Of a stretch of 64,000 nucleotides of DNA, positions 38,757 through 54,180 are shown piece after piece; positions within the stretch are counted from its first letter, which is position 1; each line of letters starts with the position of its first letter. The position numbers and the translations under genes were made by a program. The stretch covers positions 98,410 to 162,409 of the forward strand of contig CAKQWA010000002.1 of assembly GCA_934277945.1 (NCBI GenBank), given 5' to 3'. Below the pieces are notes generated by a model. That model was not told where the DNA came from. It searched no databases and worked only from the letters and a program-made list of their open reading frames with translations. Source of the stretch: an uncultured Alphaproteobacteria bacterium. GTDB taxonomy: Bacteria > Pseudomonadota > Alphaproteobacteria > CAAGCB01 > CAG-977.

Positions 38757-39227
38757 TTACCAACGATAGTGCGAAAACGCTTTGTTCGCTTCCGCCATAC
38801 GATGCGTATCTTCACGTTTCTTGACCGCGGAACCCCTGTTGTTCAAGGCGTCCATGAATTCACCGGCCAAGCGTTCTTCCATTGTTTCTTCCGAACGGTT
38901 GCGCGCGGCGGCGATGATCCAGCGGATCGCCAAAGCCTGACGGCGTTCGGGACGGACTTCAACCGGCACCTGATAGGTTGCACCCCCGACGCGACGGGAG
39001 CGAACTTCAACGGTCGGTTTGACATTGTCCAGAGCATCGTTAAAAGCCTTCAACGGCTCTTGTTTTGTTTTTGCGCTAACGCGATCCAACGCACCGTAAA
39101 CGATTTTTTCGGCAGTCGCTTTGGCGCCGTCATACATGATGCAGTTCATGAATTTGGCGACAACGACATCACCGTATTTTGCGTCAGGAACGATTTCGCG
39201 TTTTTCAGCAGCGTGACGACGAGACAT
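38757..39227 (-). CDS. rpsG: 30S ribosomal protein S7
   Basis: 156 aa. Confidence 0.97.
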
Positions 39228-39245
39228 TTCTTACTTTCCCTTCTC

Positions 39246-39617
39246 TTATTTAGGACGTTTCGCACCGTACAGAGAACGGCTCTGACGACGGGCGGAAACA
39301 CCCTGTGTATCCAACGTACCGCGGATGATGTGATAACGCACGCCCGGCAAGTCTTTTACACGGCCGCCGCGAATCATGACGACGGAGTGTTCCTGCAAAT
39401 TGTGACCTTCGCCCGGAATGTAGCTCAAAACTTCGGCGGCATTCGTCAAACGGACGCGCGCCACTTTACGCAAAGCGGAGTTCGGCTTTTTCGGGGTCGT
39501 CGTGTAAACGCGGGTGCAAACGCCGCGTTTCTGCGGACAAGCCTGCAAAGCCGGAGCCTTGTTGCGTTTCACGCGCGGCTTGCGCGGAGCGTGAATTAAT
39601 TGGTTTATTGTCGGCAT
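39246..39617 (-). CDS. rpsL: 30S ribosomal protein S12
   Basis: 123 aa, first gene of the str operon. A ~290-bp leader/promoter region lies upstream. Confidence 0.97.
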
Positions 39618-39908
39618 TAAAATTCCCTCTATTTCTTGTTTCCTTGCGGAAACGCCTAAACCATTAAACAGACTTATCTCGATTCCTTTTTGAAAGGGAA
39701 CCGAAAAAAGTTAAAACCTTTAAAACAGCGGAAACCCGCCATTTTTTCAATCACCTGACGCATCCGGAAGGGTTGCATACACACCCCTTTCGGACACTTC
39801 GGGTAAGGCATAGTCGCAAAAAACCGCCGTCGAGTCAAGGAAAATAAACGGTTTTTTGAGGTTTTTCGTAATTTTTTCAACGCTTAACGAGTCGCGTTTC
39901 ACGAATCC

Positions 39909-41117
39909 TCACAGATTCAACCTGTCCATCAAAATTCCCGTATCCTTGTCGCCGCGTCCGGACAGATTCACGATGATGATTTCGTCTTTGCGGCACGCCG
40001 GCGCCAACTTTAACGCGTAAGCCAGCGCGTGCGACGATTCCAGCGCGGGAATAATCCCCTCCGTGCGCGAAAGTTCCAGACACGCGTTCAAAGCCTCGTC
40101 GTCCGTCGCGGAAACGTATTGCGCGCGTTTTGAATCTTTCAGCATACTGTGTTCGGGTCCGACGCCGGGGTAGTCCAATCCCGCGGAAACGCTGTACGTT
40201 TCCATTGCCGAACCGTCGTCTTTCTGCAAAAGGTAACTGTACGCGCCGTGAAGCACGCCGGGGCGTCCTTTTTCAAGCGTGGCGCAATGTTCGGGCGTGT
40301 TCAAGCCCCGTCCCGCCGCTTCCACGCCGACCAGTTTGACGCTTTCATCGCTCATAAAGCCGGAAAACAGCCCGATCGCGTTGCTGCCGCCGCCGACGCA
40401 CGCGATCGCGCAGTCGGGCAGACGGTCTTCGTGTTCCAGAATCTGCCGGCGCGCCTCCGTGCCGATCACGGACTGGAAATACTTGACCATTTCGGGATAC
40501 GGATGAGGACCGACGGCGGAACCGATCAGATAAAACGTTTCCTTGTAATTGCTCATCAAATCGCCCAAAGCGGCGTCGACGGCGTCGGAAAGCGTACCCT
40601 GCCCCTTTTCGACGGGAACGACGGTCGCGCCGAGCAGTTTCATGCGAAACACGTTCAAAGACTGGCGAATCGTGTCCTCTTTGCCCATATAGATTGTGCA
40701 GGGCAGTCCGAACAGCGCGCACACGGTCGCGGTCGCCACGCCGTGCTGACCCGCACCCGTTTCGGCGATGACGCGCTTTTTGCCCAATTTCCGCGCAATC
40801 AGAATTTGCCCCATCGTGTTGTTGATTTTGTGCGCGCCCGTGTGACACAAATCTTCGCGTTTCAGGTAGATTTTCGCGCCGCCCAGTTTTTCGGACAATT
40901 TGCGGGCGTAGTACAGCGGCGTTTCGCGTCCGACGTATTCTTTTAAATAACAGGCGAGTTCGCGTTTGAAAGAATCGTCGTTTTTGACGGCGTTGAACGT
41001 TTCTTCGATTTCGTCAAGCACGGGTTTGAGGCGATTGTCGACGAACGCGCCGCCGAACGCGCCGAAGTAGCCTTTTTTTGTTTTGTTTTCATTGGAAAGC
41101 GCATTCATTTTTTTCAT
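39909..41117 (-). CDS. trpB: tryptophan synthase beta chain (402 aa), stand-alone with no adjacent trpA
   Basis: PLP-binding motifs HTGAHKINN and GGGSNAIG, full-length TrpB1-type sequence. Confidence 0.95.
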
Positions 41118-41182
41118 CCTTTGCTAAAAAATAAGCCGCTTGTTCCGACGTTTCGGGAAAAGCGGGCGTTTGTAAAAGAATG

Positions 41183-41219
41183 AAAAAAAAACCGCAAGTC
41201 CCGAACGGGAACTCTGCGG
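41183..41219 (-). terminator. attenuator terminator (segment 3:4 hairpin + U9) of the trpB leader
   Basis: Minus-sense ccgcagaGTTCCCgttcGGGACttgcgg followed by ttttttttt, about 65 nt before the trpB ATG. Its 5' half (GUUCCC) can alternatively pair with the upstream GGGAAC (antiterminator). Confidence 0.8.
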
Positions 41220-41246
41220 CAAAAGCGGTTATGTCGGCAGGTTCCC

Positions 41247-41303
41247 TTAACGGAACCGCCACCAGTTGTTGTTTGACAATGATAAGACATATACCTGTTT
41301 CAT
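41247..41303 (-). CDS. trpL: trp leader peptide (18 aa, MKQVYVLSLSNNNWWRFR) with tandem Trp codons
   Basis: Minus-strand ATG at 41303 to TAA at 41249-41247. Codons 14-15 are TGG TGG. The stop codon sits in the loop of the GGUUCC-GUUAAG-GGAACC pause hairpin. Confidence 0.75.
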   Translation of the reverse strand: MKQVYVLSLSNNNWWRFR

Positions 41304-41310
41304 ACGGACA

Positions 41311-41339
41311 ATTTAAAAACAATCCGCGCGCCGTGTCAA
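41311..41339 (-). promoter_or_regulatory. sigma-70-type promoter for the trp leader transcript (TTGACA-17 nt-TTAAAT)
   Basis: Minus-sense gTTGACAcggcgcgcggattgtttTTAAATtgtccgtATG. The leader ATG lies about 7 nt after the -10, implying a very short or leaderless 5' end. Confidence 0.55.
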
Positions 41340-41443
41340 CAGAAAATTCCGTATCGCCGGAATGTTTATGACATATCGGGCGCATTGACTTTTCGCGGAC
41401 CGCAAGCGACGCTTGAAGCATTGAAAACGACAGGAGAAAAGCA

Positions 41444-41890
41444 ATGAACAAGGTAATGACAGGATTTCTGGCTCTGGCTTTTTTGACGGCGACTCCCGCC
41501 GTCGCCAAAGAGGGCTGTATGCAGAAATTTGAAAAGAAAAGCGAGGAAATCGTGCAGGATTTTGAAAAGCACGTCAAAAAAATCCGCAAAAACGACGATT
41601 TAAGTCCCTCCATGAAAAAACTGCTTGTCAAACAGGCGGGCGAAACGCGCGATTTGAAATTGAAGCACCTGAAAGAAAAAACGGAATTGAAGCGCGCGCA
41701 CAAGGCGCAGGTCAACGCCTTGCGTCCGGCTTCAACGCAGGACAAAAAGGCGAACGCGTCCATGAACGGCGACGATTCGGACTGGTATGTCGAGGAGGAG
41801 GAAATCGACATCGTCACCCTGCCCGCGCCGGAAACGGACGGAACGCCCGCAAAGCGCACGAAAAATCCGAACCGGCATTTGATGAAATAA
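41444..41890 (+). CDS. secreted Lys-rich hypothetical protein (148 aa)
   Basis: Signal peptide MNKVMTGFLALAFLTATPAVA; RBS ggag 8 nt upstream. Confidence 0.6.
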   Translation: MNKVMTGFLALAFLTATPAVAKEGCMQKFEKKSEEIVQDFEKHVKKIRKNDDLSPSMKKLLVKQAGETRDLKLKHLKEKTELKRAHKAQVNALRPASTQDKKANASMNGDDSDWYVEEEEIDIVTLPAPETDGTPAKRTKNPNRHLMK

Positions 41891-41900
41891 GGCGCGGCGC

Positions 41901-42209
41901 ATGAAAAAAACGATTGCAACGCTCGCTGTCGCCGCCGCTCTTGCGGGATGCACGCACGAACCGCCGCCGATGCAGGAACTTGTGCCGCCCGATCCGGCGG
42001 TCGCGGACACCGTCGTCGTGCAGGAGGAAGTGTACGAACCCGTCACCGTCGAACCGGCTCAAACGCCCGATTCGCCCGCACCGGAAAACGCCGTCCCCCC
42101 GCTTGAAAACAGCGGCGCGAATGAAAACGCCGTCCAACCGTTTGAAAACGACGGCGCGGCGGACAATTCGGATCCGGCGGTCTATGTGTCGCCGTTCGCC
42201 GTCCCTTAA
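41901..42209 (+). CDS. proline-rich lipoprotein (102 aa) with short ENAV/PxEN repeats
   Basis: Lipobox LAGC after MKKTIATLAVAAA. C-terminal repeats ENAVPPLEN / ENAVQPFEN. Confidence 0.6.
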   Translation: MKKTIATLAVAAALAGCTHEPPPMQELVPPDPAVADTVVVQEEVYEPVTVEPAQTPDSPAPENAVPPLENSGANENAVQPFENDGAADNSDPAVYVSPFAVP

Positions 42210-42210
42210 A

Positions 42211-42242
42211 AGAGAAAAGCACCGTTCGCGCGGTGCTTTTTC
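42211..42242. terminator. bidirectional terminator between the lipoprotein gene (+) and the His-phosphatase/GNAT gene (-)
   Basis: agcaccg-ttcgcg-cggtgct hairpin with an A-run upstream and ttttt downstream. Confidence 0.7.
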
Positions 42243-42243
42243 A

Positions 42244-43278
42244 TTATAAATCAAGACGCATCGGCACAAACCGGATGCCGTCGCGTTCGCAAACGCCGTT
42301 CGTCGCCTTAAAGCCCCGCTTTTCATAAAACGAAACGGCGGATTCGGCGCTGTTGACGGTCAGGCAGTCCTTGCCGAGCCAGTTTTTCGCGCGGTAGGCG
42401 GCGGCGCGCAGAAGCATTTTGCCCGCGCCTTTCCCCTGCCTGTTTTCTTTCACGAACAGCAGGCACAAATGGTTTGCGCCGCGCGTTCCGGCGACTCCGA
42501 TCAGTTCCGCACCCCGAAAACAGCCGTAGAGCGCAATGTCGTTTTGCGGATTCGTCAGATTTTGCGGCGCGATGAATTCCAAGAAAGTCCGCACGCCGCG
42601 CGCGCTGTACGTTGGCGCTTCAAACCGCATGAAAACGTCTTTGACCAAGGAAACCGCGCCGTTCAACTCGAACGGTTCGATTTCGCGCACATAAAGCGGA
42701 TTGTTTTCGTCGTAGGAAAAAACGCCGTTTTCGTAATGCACGACAATCGGCGTGCCGTGTTCGATCGCCGGCATACGCAAGCCCAAATACAGCATGAAAT
42801 AGCGCAAAACCGCGCTGTGCGAGGCTATGCCGATCTTGCGCGACGGACAGTTTTCCGCCGTGCGAATCAGGGCTTCGACCATGCTTTTTTGAATTTCGCG
42901 CTTGGATTGCCCGTTCGGAAAGCGCGCGTCCATGAACGCATCGTCCAAATTGTGCCACTCGGCAAATTCTTTCGGGAATTTTTCCTTTATTTCCGCACGT
43001 TTCAACCCCTCCGCATCGCCCAAAGACGCTTCCATGAAGCCTTTTTCCTCGACAACGGGGACGTTCAGCGATTCGCCGACGATTTGCGCGGTTTTCAGCG
43101 CGCGTTTCAGCGGACTGGCGTAAATGATTTCAAGCCCCGCGCCTTTGAGATTTTCAGCCAGCGCGCGCGCCTGATTTTCGCCGTTTGCGTTCAATTCGGA
43201 ATCAATGCCGCGCCCCTGCCAGCGCGTTTGGGCGTTCATATCGGTTTCGCCGTGGCGAAACAGGTAAAAATCGGTCAT
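42244..43278 (-). CDS. fusion protein: histidine phosphatase (phosphoglycerate-mutase-like) N-terminal domain + GNAT N-acetyltransferase C-terminal domain (344 aa)
   Basis: RHG catalytic motif (LFRHGETDMN) and second His region (ASHSAVLR). C-terminal GNAT acetyl-CoA motif RQGKGAGKMLL. Confidence 0.75.
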   Translation of the reverse strand: MTDFYLFRHGETDMNAQTRWQGRGIDSELNANGENQARALAENLKGAGLEIIYASPLKRALKTAQIVGESLNVPVVEEKGFMEASLGDAEGLKRAEIKEKFPKEFAEWHNLDDAFMDARFPNGQSKREIQKSMVEALIRTAENCPSRKIGIASHSAVLRYFMLYLGLRMPAIEHGTPIVVHYENGVFSYDENNPLYVREIEPFELNGAVSLVKDVFMRFEAPTYSARGVRTFLEFIAPQNLTNPQNDIALYGCFRGAELIGVAGTRGANHLCLLFVKENRQGKGAGKMLLRAAAYRAKNWLGKDCLTVNSAESAVSFYEKRGFKATNGVCERDGIRFVPMRLDL

Positions 43279-51516: not shown

Positions 51517-51591
51517 GACCCCGTCGTCTAACGGTTAGGACACCGCCCTCTCACGGCGACAATACGGGTTCGAATCCCGTCGGGGTCGCCA
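51517..51591 (+). tRNA. tRNA-Glu (anticodon CUC)
   Basis: 75 nt with encoded CCA. Acceptor GACCCCG/CGGGGTC, T-arm ACGGG-TTCGAAT-CCCGT, anticodon loop CTCTCAC. Near-identical overall to canonical bacterial tRNA-Glu. Confidence 0.9.
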
Positions 51592-51618
51592 ATCGGCAGC
51601 ATCAGCCGAATATGAACA

Positions 51619-51643
51619 ACGTCGCGCCGCGGCGTTTTTTTTA
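51619..51643 (+). terminator. putative terminator after tRNA-Glu (GC hairpin + T9)
   Basis: cgtcgcgccgcggcg followed by ttttttttt. Confidence 0.5.
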
Positions 51644-51701
51644 TGCCCGATTTTCGCGCGTAAAAACAAAGTTGCACTCCCCCGCCTTTTTTGCTAGGCT
51701 T

Positions 51702-51890
51702 TTAAGCGGCGCGGATTTTCCGCGCAAGTGCCTTTGCGGGTGCGGGGCTGTCGTAAGCTCTCATAATCTCATACGGCGCAAGATATGCGTCGACACCGTT
51801 TTGCGTATCGCAAATGCGGAAAATATCCCCGAATTCATCTTTGATGGTTCGGGGAGCTTTCGGTGTATGTTCAGAAGTTTCGACGAACAT
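51702..51890 (-). CDS. small hypothetical protein (62 aa) at the island boundary
   Basis: ORF with protein-like composition (MFVETSEHTPKAPRTIKDEFGDIFRICDTQNG...); weak RBS; no recognisable motif. Confidence 0.25.
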   Translation of the reverse strand: MFVETSEHTPKAPRTIKDEFGDIFRICDTQNGVDAYLAPYEIMRAYDSPAPAKALARKIRAA

Positions 51891-54180
51891 CGACTAACTT
51901 TAAAGACCGGAAGAATCATTTTTATGAGATTATGATTTACGAACTCCCCGAGCCGCCTGAAAAGGCGGTTTTATTAATTCTTCAATGGGAGAGTATCATG
52001 GCTTTCACACTTGGAAACAATACGTTGGAAAACTATTTTAAAGAATACACTCTATCGAAAAGCCAATCGCAAGTCTTAAAAGAACTGACTGATTTTCTCC
52101 ATAATTCAGAAGAACGCATTTTTCTATTAAAAGGCTACGCTGGGACAGGTAAAACATTTATCGTAAACGGATTAACCGATTTTCTGACAAGTCAAGGACG
52201 CTGTTTCCATTTAGCTGCTCCTACGGGAAAAGCCGCACAGGTACTTGCTCAAAAGGCGCAAGCGGATGCTGGAACTCTTCACAGCCTGATTTATAATATA
52301 AACGGAATGAAAGAATTTAAGACGGAAGATCTTGAAAATTCAGAAACTTACCGTTTCTATGCAAATCTCAAAATCAATGACGATCCGGCAAACACAGTGT
52401 ATATCGTGGATGAAGCATCTATGATATCAGACAGCGACAGCGAAGCTGAATTTATTAAATTCGGTAGCGGAAAGCTTCTTTCCGACTTTTTAGAATATGT
52501 AAATTTGGACAATAATGATCACGATAAAAAAATAATTTTTTTGGGAGATCCCGCTCAATTACCACCAGTAGTGAACGCCGGCAAAAAGGATTTTTCGCCG
52601 GCTTTATCTGCCGAATATTTAAAAAACTGTATTCACGGCGCGCCCTCTCGCGAATTTTTAATGACAGACATCGTTCGGCAAAAAAAAGAAAGCGGTATAT
52701 TGAAGTTTGCAATGCAAATCAGAGAAGGAATAGAAAAAAGCGACTTTTATAAACTGTATGTTGCTCCGGATTCGCTCGATATTCAAATTACATCGGATTT
52801 CGACAGCACTTTTAAAATGGCATGGAATGAATCAAAAAACAGTATGGTCATTGCCAGAACAAATGAAAAGGTGGCATTGCTCAATCAGTCTGTCAGAAAA
52901 TATCGCTTTCCAAATGCACCTCTTCATTCGTCAGGAAAAACCGTTTTACAGAAGGGGGATAAGATAATAGTCACAAAAACGGTGATTACAAAAAACCATG
53001 CCGTCTACAATGGAGATTTCGGTCTTATATCCGCCATTAAAGAAAGTGTTGAGCTGCCAGCGCCTGTATCCGTAAAAAATGCCGAAACAGGTCAAACGGA
53101 TACAAAAAACGTAACTGTCATATACAGAAAAGTCGATTTGACACTTAAAGATACAGACGGAAAAAAATTTGTAATTCAGAATGTTTATATCATTGAGAAT
53201 CTTCTTTACAATAATCAGCCCGACTTGTCTTCCTATGAAAAGAAATCGCAATACATAAACTTTAAGAAGCGAATGATTGAAAACGGCATAAAGCCAAATT
53301 CGGAAGAATTTAAAAGATGCTTGGAGATTGACCCGTTTTTCAACGCTTTTTGCGTAAAATTCGGATATGCAATCACGTGCCATAAAGCGCAAGGAAGCGA
53401 ATGGGATATTATTATCGCAGACACGTCTGTCCCAAATAAAAACAAATCGGAATATTTTCATTGGCTGTACACGGCAGTAACCCGTTCTCAACAGAAATTA
53501 TATCTTCTAAACTTCAAAAATATGGATATAGGAAGTACAATTAAAACGCCCCTCAATTTCGGAAAAGAGGAAACAGCCGTTCAGAACGAACTTGCGTCCC
53601 AAAACACGCAAGACAAAAATATAAATGCCGAAGAAACGCCTTTATCAAAGATTAAAAGATTCGTTTCATCCGCACTTAAAGAATCTGGCATCAAAATAAT
53701 CTCACAAAAATCAAACAACTATATGGAAGAATACACTTTCCAAGAAGGCAGTTCTGTTGCAATATTTCAAATATATTATAATGGAAAGTTTTTCATCACT
53801 AACATTACACCAAAATTCTGTGACGATTTTTCTGAAAAAGTTTTAAGAAAAATCAGTAGGTTATGCGGATGTTATATCGGAAACGTCACAATTAACAAGG
53901 TAGTATTGGCTGAAAATTTTAAAAAAGATTTTAACAACAGGATATCAAAAATTGCGGAAAGAAACGGTTTCTGTATTATGGATTTGGAAGAAATCCAGTC
54001 TGCACTTCGTTATACCTTTTTTAAAAATGATCGGATTTGTGTTTTGGATTTTCCATTTAAATCAGCACAAACTTTTGAAGCGGCGCCTATGGTTATCAAA
54101 AAATTGTCATCATCCGATAAAGAAGCGCAAGAACTAGCGTGTTTAATCGTAAATTCTTTGCGGGAGTGTTGAAAACCATC
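51880..54180 (+). mobile_element. ~2.3 kb low-GC (~35-38% vs ~60% background) genomic islet inserted between tRNA-Glu and nfo, carrying one helicase gene
   Basis: Abrupt compositional shift visible in the sequence, tRNA-adjacent location, and a hairpin ccgcctgaaaaggcgg at the left edge (51951-51975). No integrase or clear direct repeats found. Confidence 0.5.
51998..54172 (+). CDS. RecD/Dda-like SF1B DNA helicase (about 724 aa) with an uncharacterised ~240-aa C-terminal domain
   Basis: Start chosen at MAFTLGNNT (RBS gggagag 5 nt upstream; alternative upstream ATG at 51863). Walker A GYAGTGKTF, Walker B IVDEASMI, RecD motif III FLGDPAQLPPV, motif VI AITCHKAQGSEWD. C-terminal region is Asn/Lys/Ile-rich with CGC and CDD motifs. 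Confidence 0.85.
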   Translation: MAFTLGNNTLENYFKEYTLSKSQSQVLKELTDFLHNSEERIFLLKGYAGTGKTFIVNGLTDFLTSQGRCFHLAAPTGKAAQVLAQKAQADAGTLHSLIYNINGMKEFKTEDLENSETYRFYANLKINDDPANTVYIVDEASMISDSDSEAEFIKFGSGKLLSDFLEYVNLDNNDHDKKIIFLGDPAQLPPVVNAGKKDFSPALSAEYLKNCIHGAPSREFLMTDIVRQKKESGILKFAMQIREGIEKSDFYKLYVAPDSLDIQITSDFDSTFKMAWNESKNSMVIARTNEKVALLNQSVRKYRFPNAPLHSSGKTVLQKGDKIIVTKTVITKNHAVYNGDFGLISAIKESVELPAPVSVKNAETGQTDTKNVTVIYRKVDLTLKDTDGKKFVIQNVYIIENLLYNNQPDLSSYEKKSQYINFKKRMIENGIKPNSEEFKRCLEIDPFFNAFCVKFGYAITCHKAQGSEWDIIIADTSVPNKNKSEYFHWLYTAVTRSQQKLYLLNFKNMDIGSTIKTPLNFGKEETAVQNELASQNTQDKNINAEETPLSKIKRFVSSALKESGIKIISQKSNNYMEEYTFQEGSSVAIFQIYYNGKFFITNITPKFCDDFSEKVLRKISRLCGCYIGNVTINKVVLAENFKKDFNNRISKIAERNGFCIMDLEEIQSALRYTFFKNDRICVLDFPFKSAQTFEAAPMVIKKLSSSDKEAQELACLIVNSLREC

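What the first reader, a model, noticed from the sequence alone, without database searches (positions are those of the whole stretch)
41183..41339. Textbook ribosome-mediated tryptophan attenuator (18-aa leader with tandem UGG-UGG codons) upstream of a stand-alone trpB
Read on the minus strand, a sigma-70-like promoter (TTGACA-17-TTAAAT) is followed almost immediately by the ORF ATG AAA CAG GTA TAT GTC TTA TCA TTG TCA AAC AAC AAC TGG TGG CGG TTC CGT TAA (MKQVYVLSLSNNNWWRFR*). The stop codon lies in the loop of a GGUUCC-GUUAAG-GGAACC pause hairpin. The GGGAAC(CUGC) of that hairpin can instead pair with GCAG(A)GUUCCC about 30 nt downstream, forming an antiterminator. That GUUCCC is itself the 5' arm of a GC-rich hairpin (ccgcagaGUUCCCguucGGGACuugcgg) followed by U9, forming a terminator about 65 nt before the trpB start. 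The mutually exclusive structures are placed exactly as in E. coli trpL. Here the attenuator controls an orphan trpB rather than a trpE operon, and the leader ORF appears nearly leaderless with no obvious SD. Small leader ORFs of this kind are routinely missed by annotation.
Basis: partly seen in the sequence, partly recalled or inferred. Interest (0 to 1): 0.8.

Follow-up and report, generated by a model that had tools for sequence, protein, structure and literature searches.

The report
Tryptophan attenuator ahead of lone trpB
A tiny leaderless gene with two tryptophan codons, followed by competing RNA hairpins, very probably switches a stand-alone tryptophan synthase beta gene on only when tryptophan runs short; it is a well-known kind of switch, found here in uncultured gut alphaproteobacteria and with a possible extra second gate.

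Summary
On the minus strand, TTGACA-17-TTAAAT sits 7 nt before the ATG of an 18-codon ORF (MKQVYVLSLSNNNWWRFR*). The stop codon lies in the loop of hairpin 1:2. A 2:3 antiterminator and a 3:4 terminator with U9 follow, upstream of a canonical trpB.

Eleven distinct relatives (TrpB 70-98% identical, gut metagenome alphaproteobacteria near 'Acetobacter sp. CAG:977') all carry the same design. They have WW or WWW exactly five codons before the stop and diverged N-terminal peptides. Helices 1:2, 2:3 and 3:4 show compensatory changes. The distance from the -35 element to the ATG is fixed at 29-31 nt, which implies a leaderless leader ORF.

That matches the known alphaproteobacterial trpL of Sinorhizobium, which is leaderless and encodes [14 protein letters not shown]. 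Here it sits on a locus-level solitary trpB instead of trpE(G). No Rfam family matches.

A second hairpin (T2, with a U-run in five to seven of the eleven lineages) and an anti-SD:SD helix lie between the terminator and trpB. Their sequences co-vary with terminator arm 4. This suggests a relay, 1:2/3:4/5:6 versus 2:3/4:5, that also gates a second terminator and translation. The relay is supported only by truncated (co-transcriptional) folding, not by equilibrium folding.

This is a new member of a known kind and of moderate interest.

The parts
41334..41339 (-). -35 hexamer TTGACA of the leader promoter
   Evidence: TTGAC[AT] lies 29-31 nt before the leader ATG in 11 of 11 lineages.
41311..41316 (-). 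-10 hexamer TTAAAT, ending 7 nt before the leader ATG. The predicted transcription start is at or next to the A of the ATG (41303/41304).
   Evidence: The start site is inferred from the geometry and was not measured.
41247..41303 (-). Leader ORF (trpL-like), 18 codons plus stop: MKQVYVLSLSNNNWWRFR*. No SD precedes it, so it is probably translated from a leaderless 5' end.
41259..41264 (-). Tandem Trp codons UGG-UGG. The first W lies exactly 5 codons before the stop in all 11 lineages.
41252..41260 (-). Segment 1 (GGCGGUUCC), the 5' arm of hairpin 1:2. It starts inside the second Trp codon.
41236..41246 (-). Segment 2 (GGGAACCUGCC). It pairs either with segment 1 or with segment 3, where it forms the antiterminator.
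41207..41220 (-). Segment 3 (GCCGCAGAGUUCCC), the 5' arm of terminator T1 and the 3' arm of the antiterminator.
41192..41202 (-). Segment 4 (GGGACUUGCGG), the 3' arm of terminator T1. With flanking bases (41205-41192) it can also pair with segment 5.
41183..41191 (-). U9 tract of terminator T1.
41175..41189 (-). Anti-SD stretch (UUUUUUUCAUUCUUU). It pairs with the trpB SD and start region.
   Evidence: The cognate versus non-cognate permutation test gave p < 5e-5.
41135..41168 (-). Second hairpin T2 (segments 5 and 6). The 5' arm CGCCCGCUUUUCCCG resembles segment 3, and the 3' arm CGGAACAAGCGGC resembles segment 4.
41126..41134 (-). UUAUUUUUU tract after T2, which makes T2 terminator-like in this lineage.
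41108..41122 (-). trpB SD (AAAGGA, 41122-41117) and spacer up to the start codon at 41108. This is the 3' strand of the anti-SD:SD helix.
39909..41108 (-). trpB, the canonical tryptophan synthase beta subunit (399 aa from the ATG at 41108; 402 aa from 41117).
   Evidence: TIGR00263 equivalog at 611 bits against a cutoff of 392. Pfam PALP.

Best explanation
This is a ribosome-mediated, tryptophan-sensing transcription attenuator of the alphaproteobacterial leaderless trpL type. It controls a trpB gene that stands alone at its locus.

Proposed mechanism:
1. Transcription starts at or next to the A of the leader ATG, so a 70S ribosome translates the 18-codon leader without an SD.
2. When charged tRNA-Trp is plentiful, the ribosome runs to the stop codon in the loop of hairpin 1:2 and covers segment 2. 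Segments 3 and 4 then form terminator T1 (with U9), and a transcript of about 120 nt is released.
3. When Trp is scarce, the ribosome stalls on UGG-UGG and covers segment 1. Segment 2 pairs with segment 3 to form the antiterminator, T1 cannot form, and RNA polymerase reads into trpB.
4. Less certain (inferred, about 40%): the freed segment 4 then pairs with the 5' arm of a second hairpin, T2. This would prevent both a second terminator-like hairpin and the helix that sequesters the trpB SD, so one decision would gate a second termination point and translation.

Shown here: the sequence elements, their conservation, the compensatory changes and the energetics. Inferred: the transcription start, translation of the leader and the Trp dependence. 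The likely physiological role is to make Trp from indole and serine on demand in a gut bacterium.
For: - The sequence anatomy is as described.
- Eleven of 11 distinct lineages, with TrpB 70-98% identical, have a 17-19-codon ORF with WW or WWW. The first W is always 15 nt before the stop, followed by hairpin 1:2 and a terminator. The N-terminal peptide sequences differ.
- Constrained folding was run with a ribosome at a Trp codon and the 3' arm of T1 not yet made. It gives a 2:3 helix of -13.6 to -22.9 kcal/mol that takes 7-13 nt of the terminator's 5' arm in 11 of 11 lineages. With the ribosome at the stop codon the value is only -0.5 to -6.3.
- The free leader folds into 1:2 plus 3:4 in ten of the eleven lineages, including the window.
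- Covariation of 1:2 and 3:4: 93% of cells are paired against 40-53% when partners are slid. Eight of 17 pairs show double changes. The covariation score is 0.406 against 0.189 in shuffles, reached by 0 of 500 shuffles.
- Cross-lineage permutation: cognate segments pair better than non-cognate ones for 1:2, 2:3 and 3:4 (each p = 5e-5). The same-sense controls 1:3, 2:4 and 1:4 do not (p = 0.23, 0.59, 0.16).
- A covariance model of the element hits only these loci, hits the window once, and hits none of 80 more distant trpB loci.
- The distance from -35 to the ATG is 29-31 nt in 11 of 11 lineages, and no SD is present in 10 of 11. This matches S. meliloti, where the attenuator RNA starts with the ATG of trpL (PMC7298713, PMC6614838).
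- The downstream gene is a true TrpB.
- For the second stage: T2 and the anti-SD:SD helix appear in the folds of most lineages, and in the window the region folds with z = -3.9. Cognate advantage was found for segment 4 with the post-T1 region (p = 4e-4), for anti-SD:SD (p < 5e-5) and for the two halves of T2 (p = 0.014). With 2:3 enforced and the transcript cut before the T2 3' arm, 6-12 nt of segment 4 pair downstream with the stretch that holds segment 5 in 10 of 11 lineages.
Against: - There is no experimental or transcriptome evidence. The start site, leader translation and Trp-dependent readthrough are all inferred.
- No Rfam leader family matches.
- At equilibrium with segment 1 masked, the terminator still wins over the antiterminator in the window and four other lineages. 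As in E. coli, the switch has to be kinetic.
- For the second stage: with 2:3 enforced but the full-length RNA at equilibrium, T2 and anti-SD:SD still form in the three lineages printed before the script stopped, the window included. Only L089 flips.
- The rise in SD accessibility (0.10 to 0.71) is partly forced by the nested-structure model, which forbids pseudoknots.
- T2 lacks a U-run in four lineages and has only a short, interrupted one in two.
Confidence: 0.87

Rival explanations
1. The core attenuator is real, but T2 and the anti-SD:SD helix are not coupled to it. They would be a constitutive structured 5' UTR, acting as a leak-reducing second terminator, an RNA-stability hairpin or a remnant of a duplicated terminator. 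In that case the only switch is 1:2/3:4 versus 2:3.
For: Equilibrium folds keep T2 and anti-SD:SD even when 2:3 is enforced, in the window and in the two other lineages printed apart from L089. T2 has no U-run in four lineages and only a short, interrupted one in two. The arms of T1 and T2 look like paralogues, so 4:5 complementarity could be a by-product of duplication or gene conversion.
Against: Cognate segment 4 pairs with its own post-T1 region better than with those of other lineages (p = 4e-4). Independent drift after one ancient duplication would not produce that. In truncated folds 4:5 forms in 10 of 11 lineages. An unregulated terminator or SD sequestor directly ahead of the only regulated gene would simply waste expression.
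Confidence: 0.45
2. Besides, or instead of, acting in cis, the terminated leader RNA and its peptide act in trans. This is what rnTrpL and peTrpL do in Sinorhizobium meliloti, where they act as an sRNA targeting other mRNAs and as a peptide in antibiotic-dependent complexes.
For: The element has the same design as S. meliloti trpL: leaderless, with WW/WWW near the C-terminus and a released terminated RNA (PMC6614838, PMC7298713). The leader of one relative, MMKNVQNISGKNWWWRP, resembles S. meliloti [14 protein letters not shown].
Against: Nothing here tests a trans function. Apart from the W run, the peptide N-termini are poorly conserved among the 11 lineages. No targets could be searched for without the genome.
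Confidence: 0.15
3. The small ORF is a chance ORF and is not translated. The hairpins would be an ordinary terminator or a protein- or ligand-controlled leader (TRAP-like, T-box-like or a riboswitch).
For: No SD precedes the ORF. No experimental evidence of translation exists.
Against: The reading frame, the tandem W codons, the fixed 15-nt distance from the first W to the stop, and the stop in the 1:2 loop are kept in 11 lineages despite sequence divergence. The promoter is placed to start transcription at the ATG in all of them. There is no T-box, riboswitch or other Rfam hit. No (G/U)AG repeat array of the TRAP type was noticed in the sequences read; no dedicated search for one was run. In the window the upstream genes are divergent, so the terminator does not end an upstream gene.
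Confidence: 0.04
4. A TnaC-like nascent-peptide sensor. Free tryptophan would stall the ribosome at the end of the leader and induce the downstream gene when Trp is abundant, the opposite polarity.
For: A short leader with conserved W residues lies close to the stop codon.
Against: The RNA logic points the other way. A ribosome at the stop codon covers segment 2 and allows the intrinsic terminator to form. The terminator is intrinsic, not Rho-dependent. The regulated gene makes Trp rather than degrading it. The conserved residues after the W run are explained by the RNA stem of segment 1.
Confidence: 0.03

Closest known systems
Alphaproteobacterial trpL attenuator upstream of trpE(G) in Sinorhizobium meliloti, Agrobacterium tumefaciens and Bradyrhizobium (rnTrpL/peTrpL; Bae & Crawford 1990 as cited in PMC6614838; PMC7298713)
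   Same: Both are ribosome-mediated Trp attenuators in Alphaproteobacteria. The transcript begins at the ATG of the leader ORF (leaderless). The leader is 14-19 aa with WW or WWW near the C-terminus. Three stem-loops are present, the last being an intrinsic terminator. A relative's leader, MMKNVQNISGKNWWWRP, resembles [14 protein letters not shown].
   Different: Here the element precedes a locus-level solitary trpB, not trpE(G). In S. meliloti the trpFBA operon carries no attenuator (PMC6614838). Here a further hairpin (T2) and an SD-sequestering helix follow the terminator. The hosts are uncultured gut alphaproteobacteria. Homology of the RNAs could not be tested because no rhizobial chromosome sequence was available in the tools.
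Escherichia coli trp operon leader (trpL; Rfam RF00513 Trp_leader)
   Same: Both have tandem UGG codons in segment 1, the stop codon between segments 1 and 2, mutually exclusive 1:2/3:4 versus 2:3 pairings, and an intrinsic terminator with a U-run.
   Different: No hit to the Rfam family, even at E <= 10. The E. coli leader has a 5' UTR with an SD and is combined with TrpR repression. It controls trpEDCBA, not a lone trpB.
Salmonella/E. coli his operon attenuator (six segments A-F: A:B, C:D, E:F versus B:C, D:E; from established knowledge, not checked here)
   Same: It is a relay of more than four segments in which the ribosome's position is passed down a chain of alternative hairpins. That is the logic proposed here for 1:2/3:4/5:6 versus 2:3/4:5.
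   Different: In the his leader only the last hairpin is a terminator. Here the middle hairpin (3:4) is already a full terminator, and the last one is a second terminator-like hairpin nested in an SD-sequestering helix. The relay here is only predicted.
Bacillus subtilis trp leader (TRAP): transcription attenuation plus an SD-sequestering hairpin for trpE (from established knowledge)
   Same: One Trp signal gives dual control, acting both on termination in the leader and on access to the SD of the first gene.
   Different: The sensor there is the TRAP protein binding (G/U)AG repeats, not a translating ribosome. The RNAs are unrelated.
Candidate attenuators upstream of trpB-led operons in Corynebacterium diphtheriae (trpB1EDGC, trpB2A; PMC1262725) and the annotated trpL in the Chlamydia trachomatis trpRBA intergenic region (PMC7755916)
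   Same: A leader-peptide attenuator is placed directly ahead of a trpB gene. In Chlamydia the trpBA genes serve indole salvage.
   Different: Those trpB genes are followed by other trp genes. The Chlamydia TrpL is 59 aa without consecutive Trp codons and is judged non-functional or unvalidated (PMC7755916). The phyla differ, and no leaderless design is reported for either.

Membership tests
Ribosome-mediated Trp attenuator (trpL-type leader) | Short ORF with consecutive Trp codons in the 5' leader of a Trp-pathway gene | tested here: met
   An 18-codon ORF with UGG-UGG lies upstream of trpB. WW or WWW is conserved in 11 of 11 lineages.
Ribosome-mediated Trp attenuator (trpL-type leader) | Intrinsic terminator (GC-rich hairpin plus U-run) between the leader ORF and the structural gene | tested here: met
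   T1 has dG -16.1 kcal/mol and is followed by U9. It is present in all 11 lineages with compensatory changes.
Ribosome-mediated Trp attenuator (trpL-type leader) | Antiterminator (2:3) that excludes the terminator and is favoured when the ribosome sits on the Trp codons | tested here: met
   Constrained folds gave the antiterminator in 11 of 11 lineages. Cognate versus non-cognate 2:3 gave p = 5e-5. Column-wise covariation could not be counted because the helix register shifts between lineages.
Ribosome-mediated Trp attenuator (trpL-type leader) | Hairpin 1:2 that sequesters segment 2 when the leader is fully translated or not translated | tested here: met
   Four of 7 pairs show double changes and 96% of cells are paired.
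Ribosome-mediated Trp attenuator (trpL-type leader) | Trp-dependent termination and readthrough in vivo or in vitro | not testable with these tools
   This needs RNA-seq, Term-seq, reporter fusions or in vitro transcription.
Alphaproteobacterial leaderless trpL (S. meliloti rnTrpL type) | Transcript starts at the ATG of the leader ORF (leaderless) | tested here: inconclusive
   The promoter geometry fits: -35 to ATG is 29-31 nt, the -10 ends 6-8 nt before the ATG in 11 of 11 lineages, and no SD is present in 10 of 11. The 5' end was not measured.
Alphaproteobacterial leaderless trpL (S. meliloti rnTrpL type) | Located upstream of trpE(G) | tested here: not met
   The downstream gene is trpB (TIGR00263) in the window and in all relatives.
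Alphaproteobacterial leaderless trpL (S. meliloti rnTrpL type) | Host is an alphaproteobacterium | tested here: inconclusive
   The closest named TrpB relatives are 'Acetobacter sp.' MAGs and 'Acetobacter sp. CAG:977' from the human gut. The source genome itself is unnamed, and no rRNA or marker phylogeny was done.
Rfam RF00513 Trp_leader (enterobacterial sequence family) | Match to the covariance model | tested here: not met
   No hit at E <= 10 in 39000-43000 and none at the gathering threshold in the whole window.
Stand-alone (orphan) trpB used for indole salvage | No trpA or other trp genes in the genome | tested here: inconclusive
   None is adjacent in the window or in 13 related loci. 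No TrpA- or TrpF-like ORF is present in the 64-kb window. The rest of the genome was not available.

The most novel reading that the evidence does not exclude
The leader is more than a four-segment attenuator. It would be a six-segment relay in which one stalled, leaderless ribosome sets three gates in series: terminator T1, a paralogous second terminator T2, and an SD-sequestering helix for trpB. The relay would run through the alternative chains 1:2/3:4/5:6 plus antiSD:SD versus 2:3/4:5. It would serve a solitary TrpB that lets a reduced gut alphaproteobacterium make Trp from community indole only when tRNA-Trp charging falls. The released leader RNA and peptide might also act in trans, as rnTrpL and peTrpL do.
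Probability: 0.3. Interest if true: 0.55.

Novelty: new member of a known kind. Interest (0 to 1): 0.4.

Why it matters
The result shows that the leaderless trpL design characterised in rhizobia extends to uncultured gut alphaproteobacteria. It also shows that the design has been attached to a different gene, a trpB with no neighbouring trp genes. This points to tightly regulated, on-demand use of indole, an abundant gut metabolite, for tryptophan supply.

The result provides an unannotated small ORF and an RNA element with no Rfam family. Eleven diverged examples are now available to seed one. If the predicted relay to a second terminator and to the trpB ribosome-binding site is real, it would be a compact natural example of one ribosomal decision controlling transcription twice and translation once.

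As a mechanism it is otherwise textbook, so the practical value lies mainly in annotation and in metabolic inference for gut MAGs.

Tried and rejected
1. Rfam. The permissive scan of 39000-43000 and the gathering scan of the whole window gave no leader, T-box or riboswitch family. The only outputs were a chance snoRNA hit at E = 1.4 and two tRNAs.
They were useless as orthologues but served as a negative set: the covariance model hits none of them.
3. The metagenome-contig scan with the pattern TGGTGGYG...GCCGCR...GCGGWTTTT returned 80 loci. The three weak model hits are 3' ends of coding genes, and the two WW-containing short ORFs that turned up fit neither the W-to-stop spacing of the family nor the model. 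No new member was found.
4. Column-wise covariation for the 2:3 helix was abandoned. Bulges shift the helix register between lineages in both the MAFFT and the model-based alignments. An alignment-free cognate versus non-cognate duplex permutation test replaced it.
5. Equilibrium folding does not support the relay. With 2:3 enforced, the full-length RNA still forms T2 and antiSD:SD in the lineages printed, the window included, except L089 (the script stopped after four lineages). Only truncated, co-transcriptional folds support the relay.
6. P0006, a 566-aa 'TrpB', was checked as a possible fusion partner. It is an internally duplicated TrpB from an unrelated lineage.
7. The 276-aa ORF 41089-41919 (-) that overlaps the leader was not tested. 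It was set aside because the genes called across that stretch in the near-identical relative L081 are the divergent small ORFs on the other strand, which have no Pfam or NCBIfam match.
8. A literature search for trp metabolism in RF32-like gut alphaproteobacteria found nothing relevant.
Full report
**What is in the sequence**

All coordinates are on the minus strand.
- TTGACA lies at 41339-41334. A 17-nt spacer follows, then TTAAAT at 41316-41311.
- Seven nucleotides later an ATG (41303) opens an 18-codon ORF, MKQVYVLSLSNNNWWRFR, that ends with TAA at 41249-41247.
- The two Trp codons are at 41264-41259.
- GGCGGUUCC (segment 1, 41260-41252) pairs with GGAACC.UGCC (segment 2). The stop codon lies in the six-base loop.
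- GGGAACCUGC (41246-41237) can instead pair with GCAGaGUUCCC (segment 3, 41217-41207).
- Segment 3 is also the 5' arm of a hairpin (41220-41192) that is followed by nine U (41191-41183).
- trpB follows. Its first ATG is at 41117, and the ATG best spaced from the SD AAAGGA is at 41108.

The promoter and terminator scan finds the same promoter (10 of 12 matches) and the same terminator. The leader folds far better than dinucleotide shuffles: -44.2 against -31.9 +/- 3.6 kcal/mol, z = -3.4. In the whole 64-kb window only 2 of 404 small ATG-ORFs contain WW, and only this one is followed by a T-run.

**Context**

- The downstream gene is a canonical tryptophan synthase beta subunit. It scores 611 bits on the TIGR00263 equivalog against a cutoff of 392, and matches Pfam PALP.
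- After it, on the same strand, come rpsL, rpsG, fusA and tuf.
- Upstream, on the other strand, lie two small ORFs with no family match. Beyond them are a His_Phos/GNAT gene and suf genes.
- The leader thus lies in a divergent intergenic region, and its terminator cannot be the end of an upstream gene.
- No ORF in the 64-kb window resembles the genes that flank trpB in 80 other bacteria, which include TrpA and TrpF.
- The closest named TrpB relatives are 'Acetobacter sp.' MAGs and 'Acetobacter sp. CAG:977' from the human gut.

**Comparative test**

I fetched the DNA around TrpB proteins that are 70-98% identical to the window's. Every one of 11 distinct lineages has trpB without neighbouring trp genes. 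About 180-205 nt upstream of it, each has an ORF of 17-19 codons that ends in one of these:
- ...NWWRFR*
- ...NWWRFS*
- ...NWWWRL*
- ...NWWWRP*
- ...KWWRRS*
- ...NWWRFP*
- ...NWWWLS*

The N-terminal parts differ widely. The first Trp codon is always 15 nt before the stop, and the stop lies in the 1:2 loop in every lineage checked.

- RNAalifold recovers 1:2 and 3:4 as the consensus structure.
- A covariance model built from these sequences hits only these loci, hits the window once, and hits none of 80 more distant trpB loci.
- On the model alignment, 93% of cells pair, against 40-53% when partners are slid by 1-3 columns. Eight of 17 pairs carry double changes. The covariation score is 0.406 against 0.189 in shuffles, reached by 0 of 500 shuffles.

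Bulges shift the register of helix 2:3 between lineages, so I used an alignment-free test instead. It asks whether each segment forms a stronger duplex with its own lineage's partner than with partners from other lineages.
- It does for 1:2, 2:3 and 3:4, each with p = 5e-5 from 20,000 permutations.
- It does not for the same-sense control pairs 1:3, 2:4 and 1:4 (p = 0.23, 0.59, 0.16).

**Mechanism**

I masked the RNA as a ribosome would, through 13 nt past the first base of the A-site codon, and cut it before the terminator's 3' arm is made.
- A ribosome stalled on either Trp codon gives a 2:3 antiterminator of -13.6 to -22.9 kcal/mol in all 11 lineages. It occupies 7-13 nt of the terminator's 5' arm.
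- A ribosome at the stop codon leaves only -0.5 to -6.3 kcal/mol of structure there.
- The untranslated leader folds into 1:2 plus 3:4 in ten of the eleven lineages, the window among them.

This is the classical attenuation logic. At full equilibrium with segment 1 masked, the terminator is still the more stable structure in the window and four other lineages. The switch must therefore be kinetic, as it is in E. coli.

**The 'leaderless' oddity**

- The end of the -35 hexamer lies 29-31 nt before the leader ATG in 11 of 11 lineages.
- The best -10 hexamer ends 6-8 nt before the ATG.
- Ten of 11 lineages have no SD, and eight start with ATGATG.

This places the transcription start at or next to the A of the ATG. 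[quoted passage not shown] The Agrobacterium and Bradyrhizobium leaders are MNIVSKNIANWWWSSFLRP and MSTAVAPARLWWRTS (PMC7298713; 'leaderless rnTrpL' in PMC6614838). The leader of one relative here, MMKNVQNISGKNWWWRP, resembles the S. meliloti peptide.

The element is therefore best filed with the alphaproteobacterial leaderless trpL attenuators, not with the enterobacterial Trp_leader family, which it does not match. It differs in the regulated gene. In S. meliloti only trpE(G) carries trpL, and trpFBA is not regulated this way (PMC6614838).

Attenuators directly ahead of a trpB have been predicted in Corynebacterium diphtheriae (PMC1262725). The annotated Chlamydia trpL ahead of trpBA is atypical and unvalidated (PMC7755916).

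Between the U9 tract and trpB there is a second imperfect hairpin, T2 (41168-41135). In the window it is followed by UUAUUUUUU (41134-41126).

The stretch right after terminator T1 (41189-41175) pairs with the trpB SD and spacer (41122-41108). This forms an outer helix around T2. The 90-nt region folds at -24.2 against -14.3 +/- 2.6 kcal/mol for shuffles, z = -3.9.

- T2's arms resemble T1's arms. In L089 the two 3' arms share ACCGGCGGUUUUUUU.
- An SD-sequestering outer helix recurs in nearly all lineages.
- T2 has a clear U-run in the window and its four closest relatives. The U-run is weak or interrupted in L090 and L092 and absent in four lineages.

Cognate versus non-cognate tests are significant in three comparisons:
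- antiSD:SD, p < 5e-5
- segment 4 against the post-T1 region, p = 4e-4
- the two halves of T2, p = 0.014

With 2:3 enforced and the transcript cut before T2's 3' arm, 6-12 nt of the freed segment 4 pair downstream with the stretch that holds T2's 5' arm, segment 5, in 10 of 11 lineages. In the window this is UUCGGGA/UCCCGAA plus GCGG/CCGC.

This suggests a relay:
- Trp replete: 1:2, 3:4, 5:6 and antiSD:SD form. T1 terminates, T2 acts as a backup terminator, and the SD is closed.
- Trp starved: 2:3 and 4:5 form. Neither terminator forms and the SD is open.

The model SD accessibility rises from 0.10 to 0.71 between these states. That rise is partly imposed by forbidding pseudoknots.

The relay is not supported at equilibrium. 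With only 2:3 enforced, the full-length RNA keeps T2 and antiSD:SD in the lineages printed, the window included, except L089 (the script stopped after four lineages). I therefore rate this second stage at roughly 40%. Its rival is a constitutive structured UTR or a duplicated terminator remnant.

**Comparison and novelty**

The core is a known kind of system, a leader-peptide Trp attenuator. Its sub-type, the leaderless alphaproteobacterial trpL, is also known. Three things are new:
- the host lineage (uncultured gut alphaproteobacteria)
- the target (a trpB that stands alone at its locus, plausibly for making Trp from indole)
- the absence of any Rfam family for it

The possible six-segment relay recalls the his-operon attenuator's chain of alternative hairpins. 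It also recalls the dual transcription and translation control of the B. subtilis trp leader. The sensor differs from the latter, and here the middle hairpin is already a terminator.

I classify the finding as a new member of a known kind. The relay reading is the most novel case that the evidence does not exclude.

**Limits**

- There are no expression data. The transcription start, leader translation and Trp dependence are inferred.
- 'Orphan' is shown only for the locus, the 64-kb window and the relatives' flanks.
- The source organism is identified only through its nearest named TrpB relatives.
- The metagenome pattern scan found no further members.

Noticed in passing
window 51517-54172 (+): A tRNA-Glu(ctc) at 51517-51591 is followed by a single low-GC gene, 51863-54172. 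Its GC is 0.32-0.40 against about 0.55 around it. It encodes a PIF1/RecD-like SF1 helicase (AAA_30, UvrD_C_2) fused to a TBP-TOTE 'conflict system' domain. It is probably a horizontally acquired defence gene inserted next to the tRNA.
   Followed up: partly
window 41346-41363 (-): A perfect inverted repeat, ATTCCGgcgataCGGAAT, lies immediately upstream of the leader's -35 hexamer. The scan flagged it as terminator-like. It is present only in the window and the 96%-identical relative L081, not in more distant lineages. It could be an operator or the terminator of nothing obvious.
   Followed up: no
L085, L089, L090, L092, L093, L095, L097, L099 (leader starts): Eight of the 11 lineages begin the leader ORF with a tandem ATGATG at the predicted 5' end. 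This may buffer leaderless initiation against variation in the transcription start.
   Followed up: partly
window 41444-41890 (+) and 41901-42209 (+): Two small ORFs (148 and 102 aa) are transcribed divergently from the leader promoter. They have no Pfam or NCBIfam match. The first begins MNKVMTGFLALAFLTATPA, which looks like a signal peptide. Syntenic small ORFs occur in relatives. A conserved AAAGTCAAT upstream of the leader promoter is the reverse complement of a TTGACT -35 for this divergent gene.
   Followed up: no
L085 3797-3850 versus S. meliloti peTrpL (literature): The leader peptide MMKNVQNISGKNWWWRP shares QNIS...WWW.R with S. meliloti [14 protein letters not shown] (PMC7298713). 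This hints that the trpB leader descends from the ancestral trpE(G) leader. The sequences are too short to test.
   Followed up: partly
window 41221-41235 (-): The spacer inside the antiterminator loop (AACCGCUUUUGCC) is a third near-copy of the CCGCUUUU motif found in T2's 5' arm. It could pair with T2's 3' arm (AAGCGG). This was seen only in the window and its close relatives and was not tested.
   Followed up: no
protein P0006: A 566-aa 'TrpB' from an NCBI record carries an internal duplication of about 170 residues (LRDWVTN...[12 protein letters not shown] occurs twice). It is either an assembly chimera or a real duplication, in an unrelated lineage.
   Followed up: no
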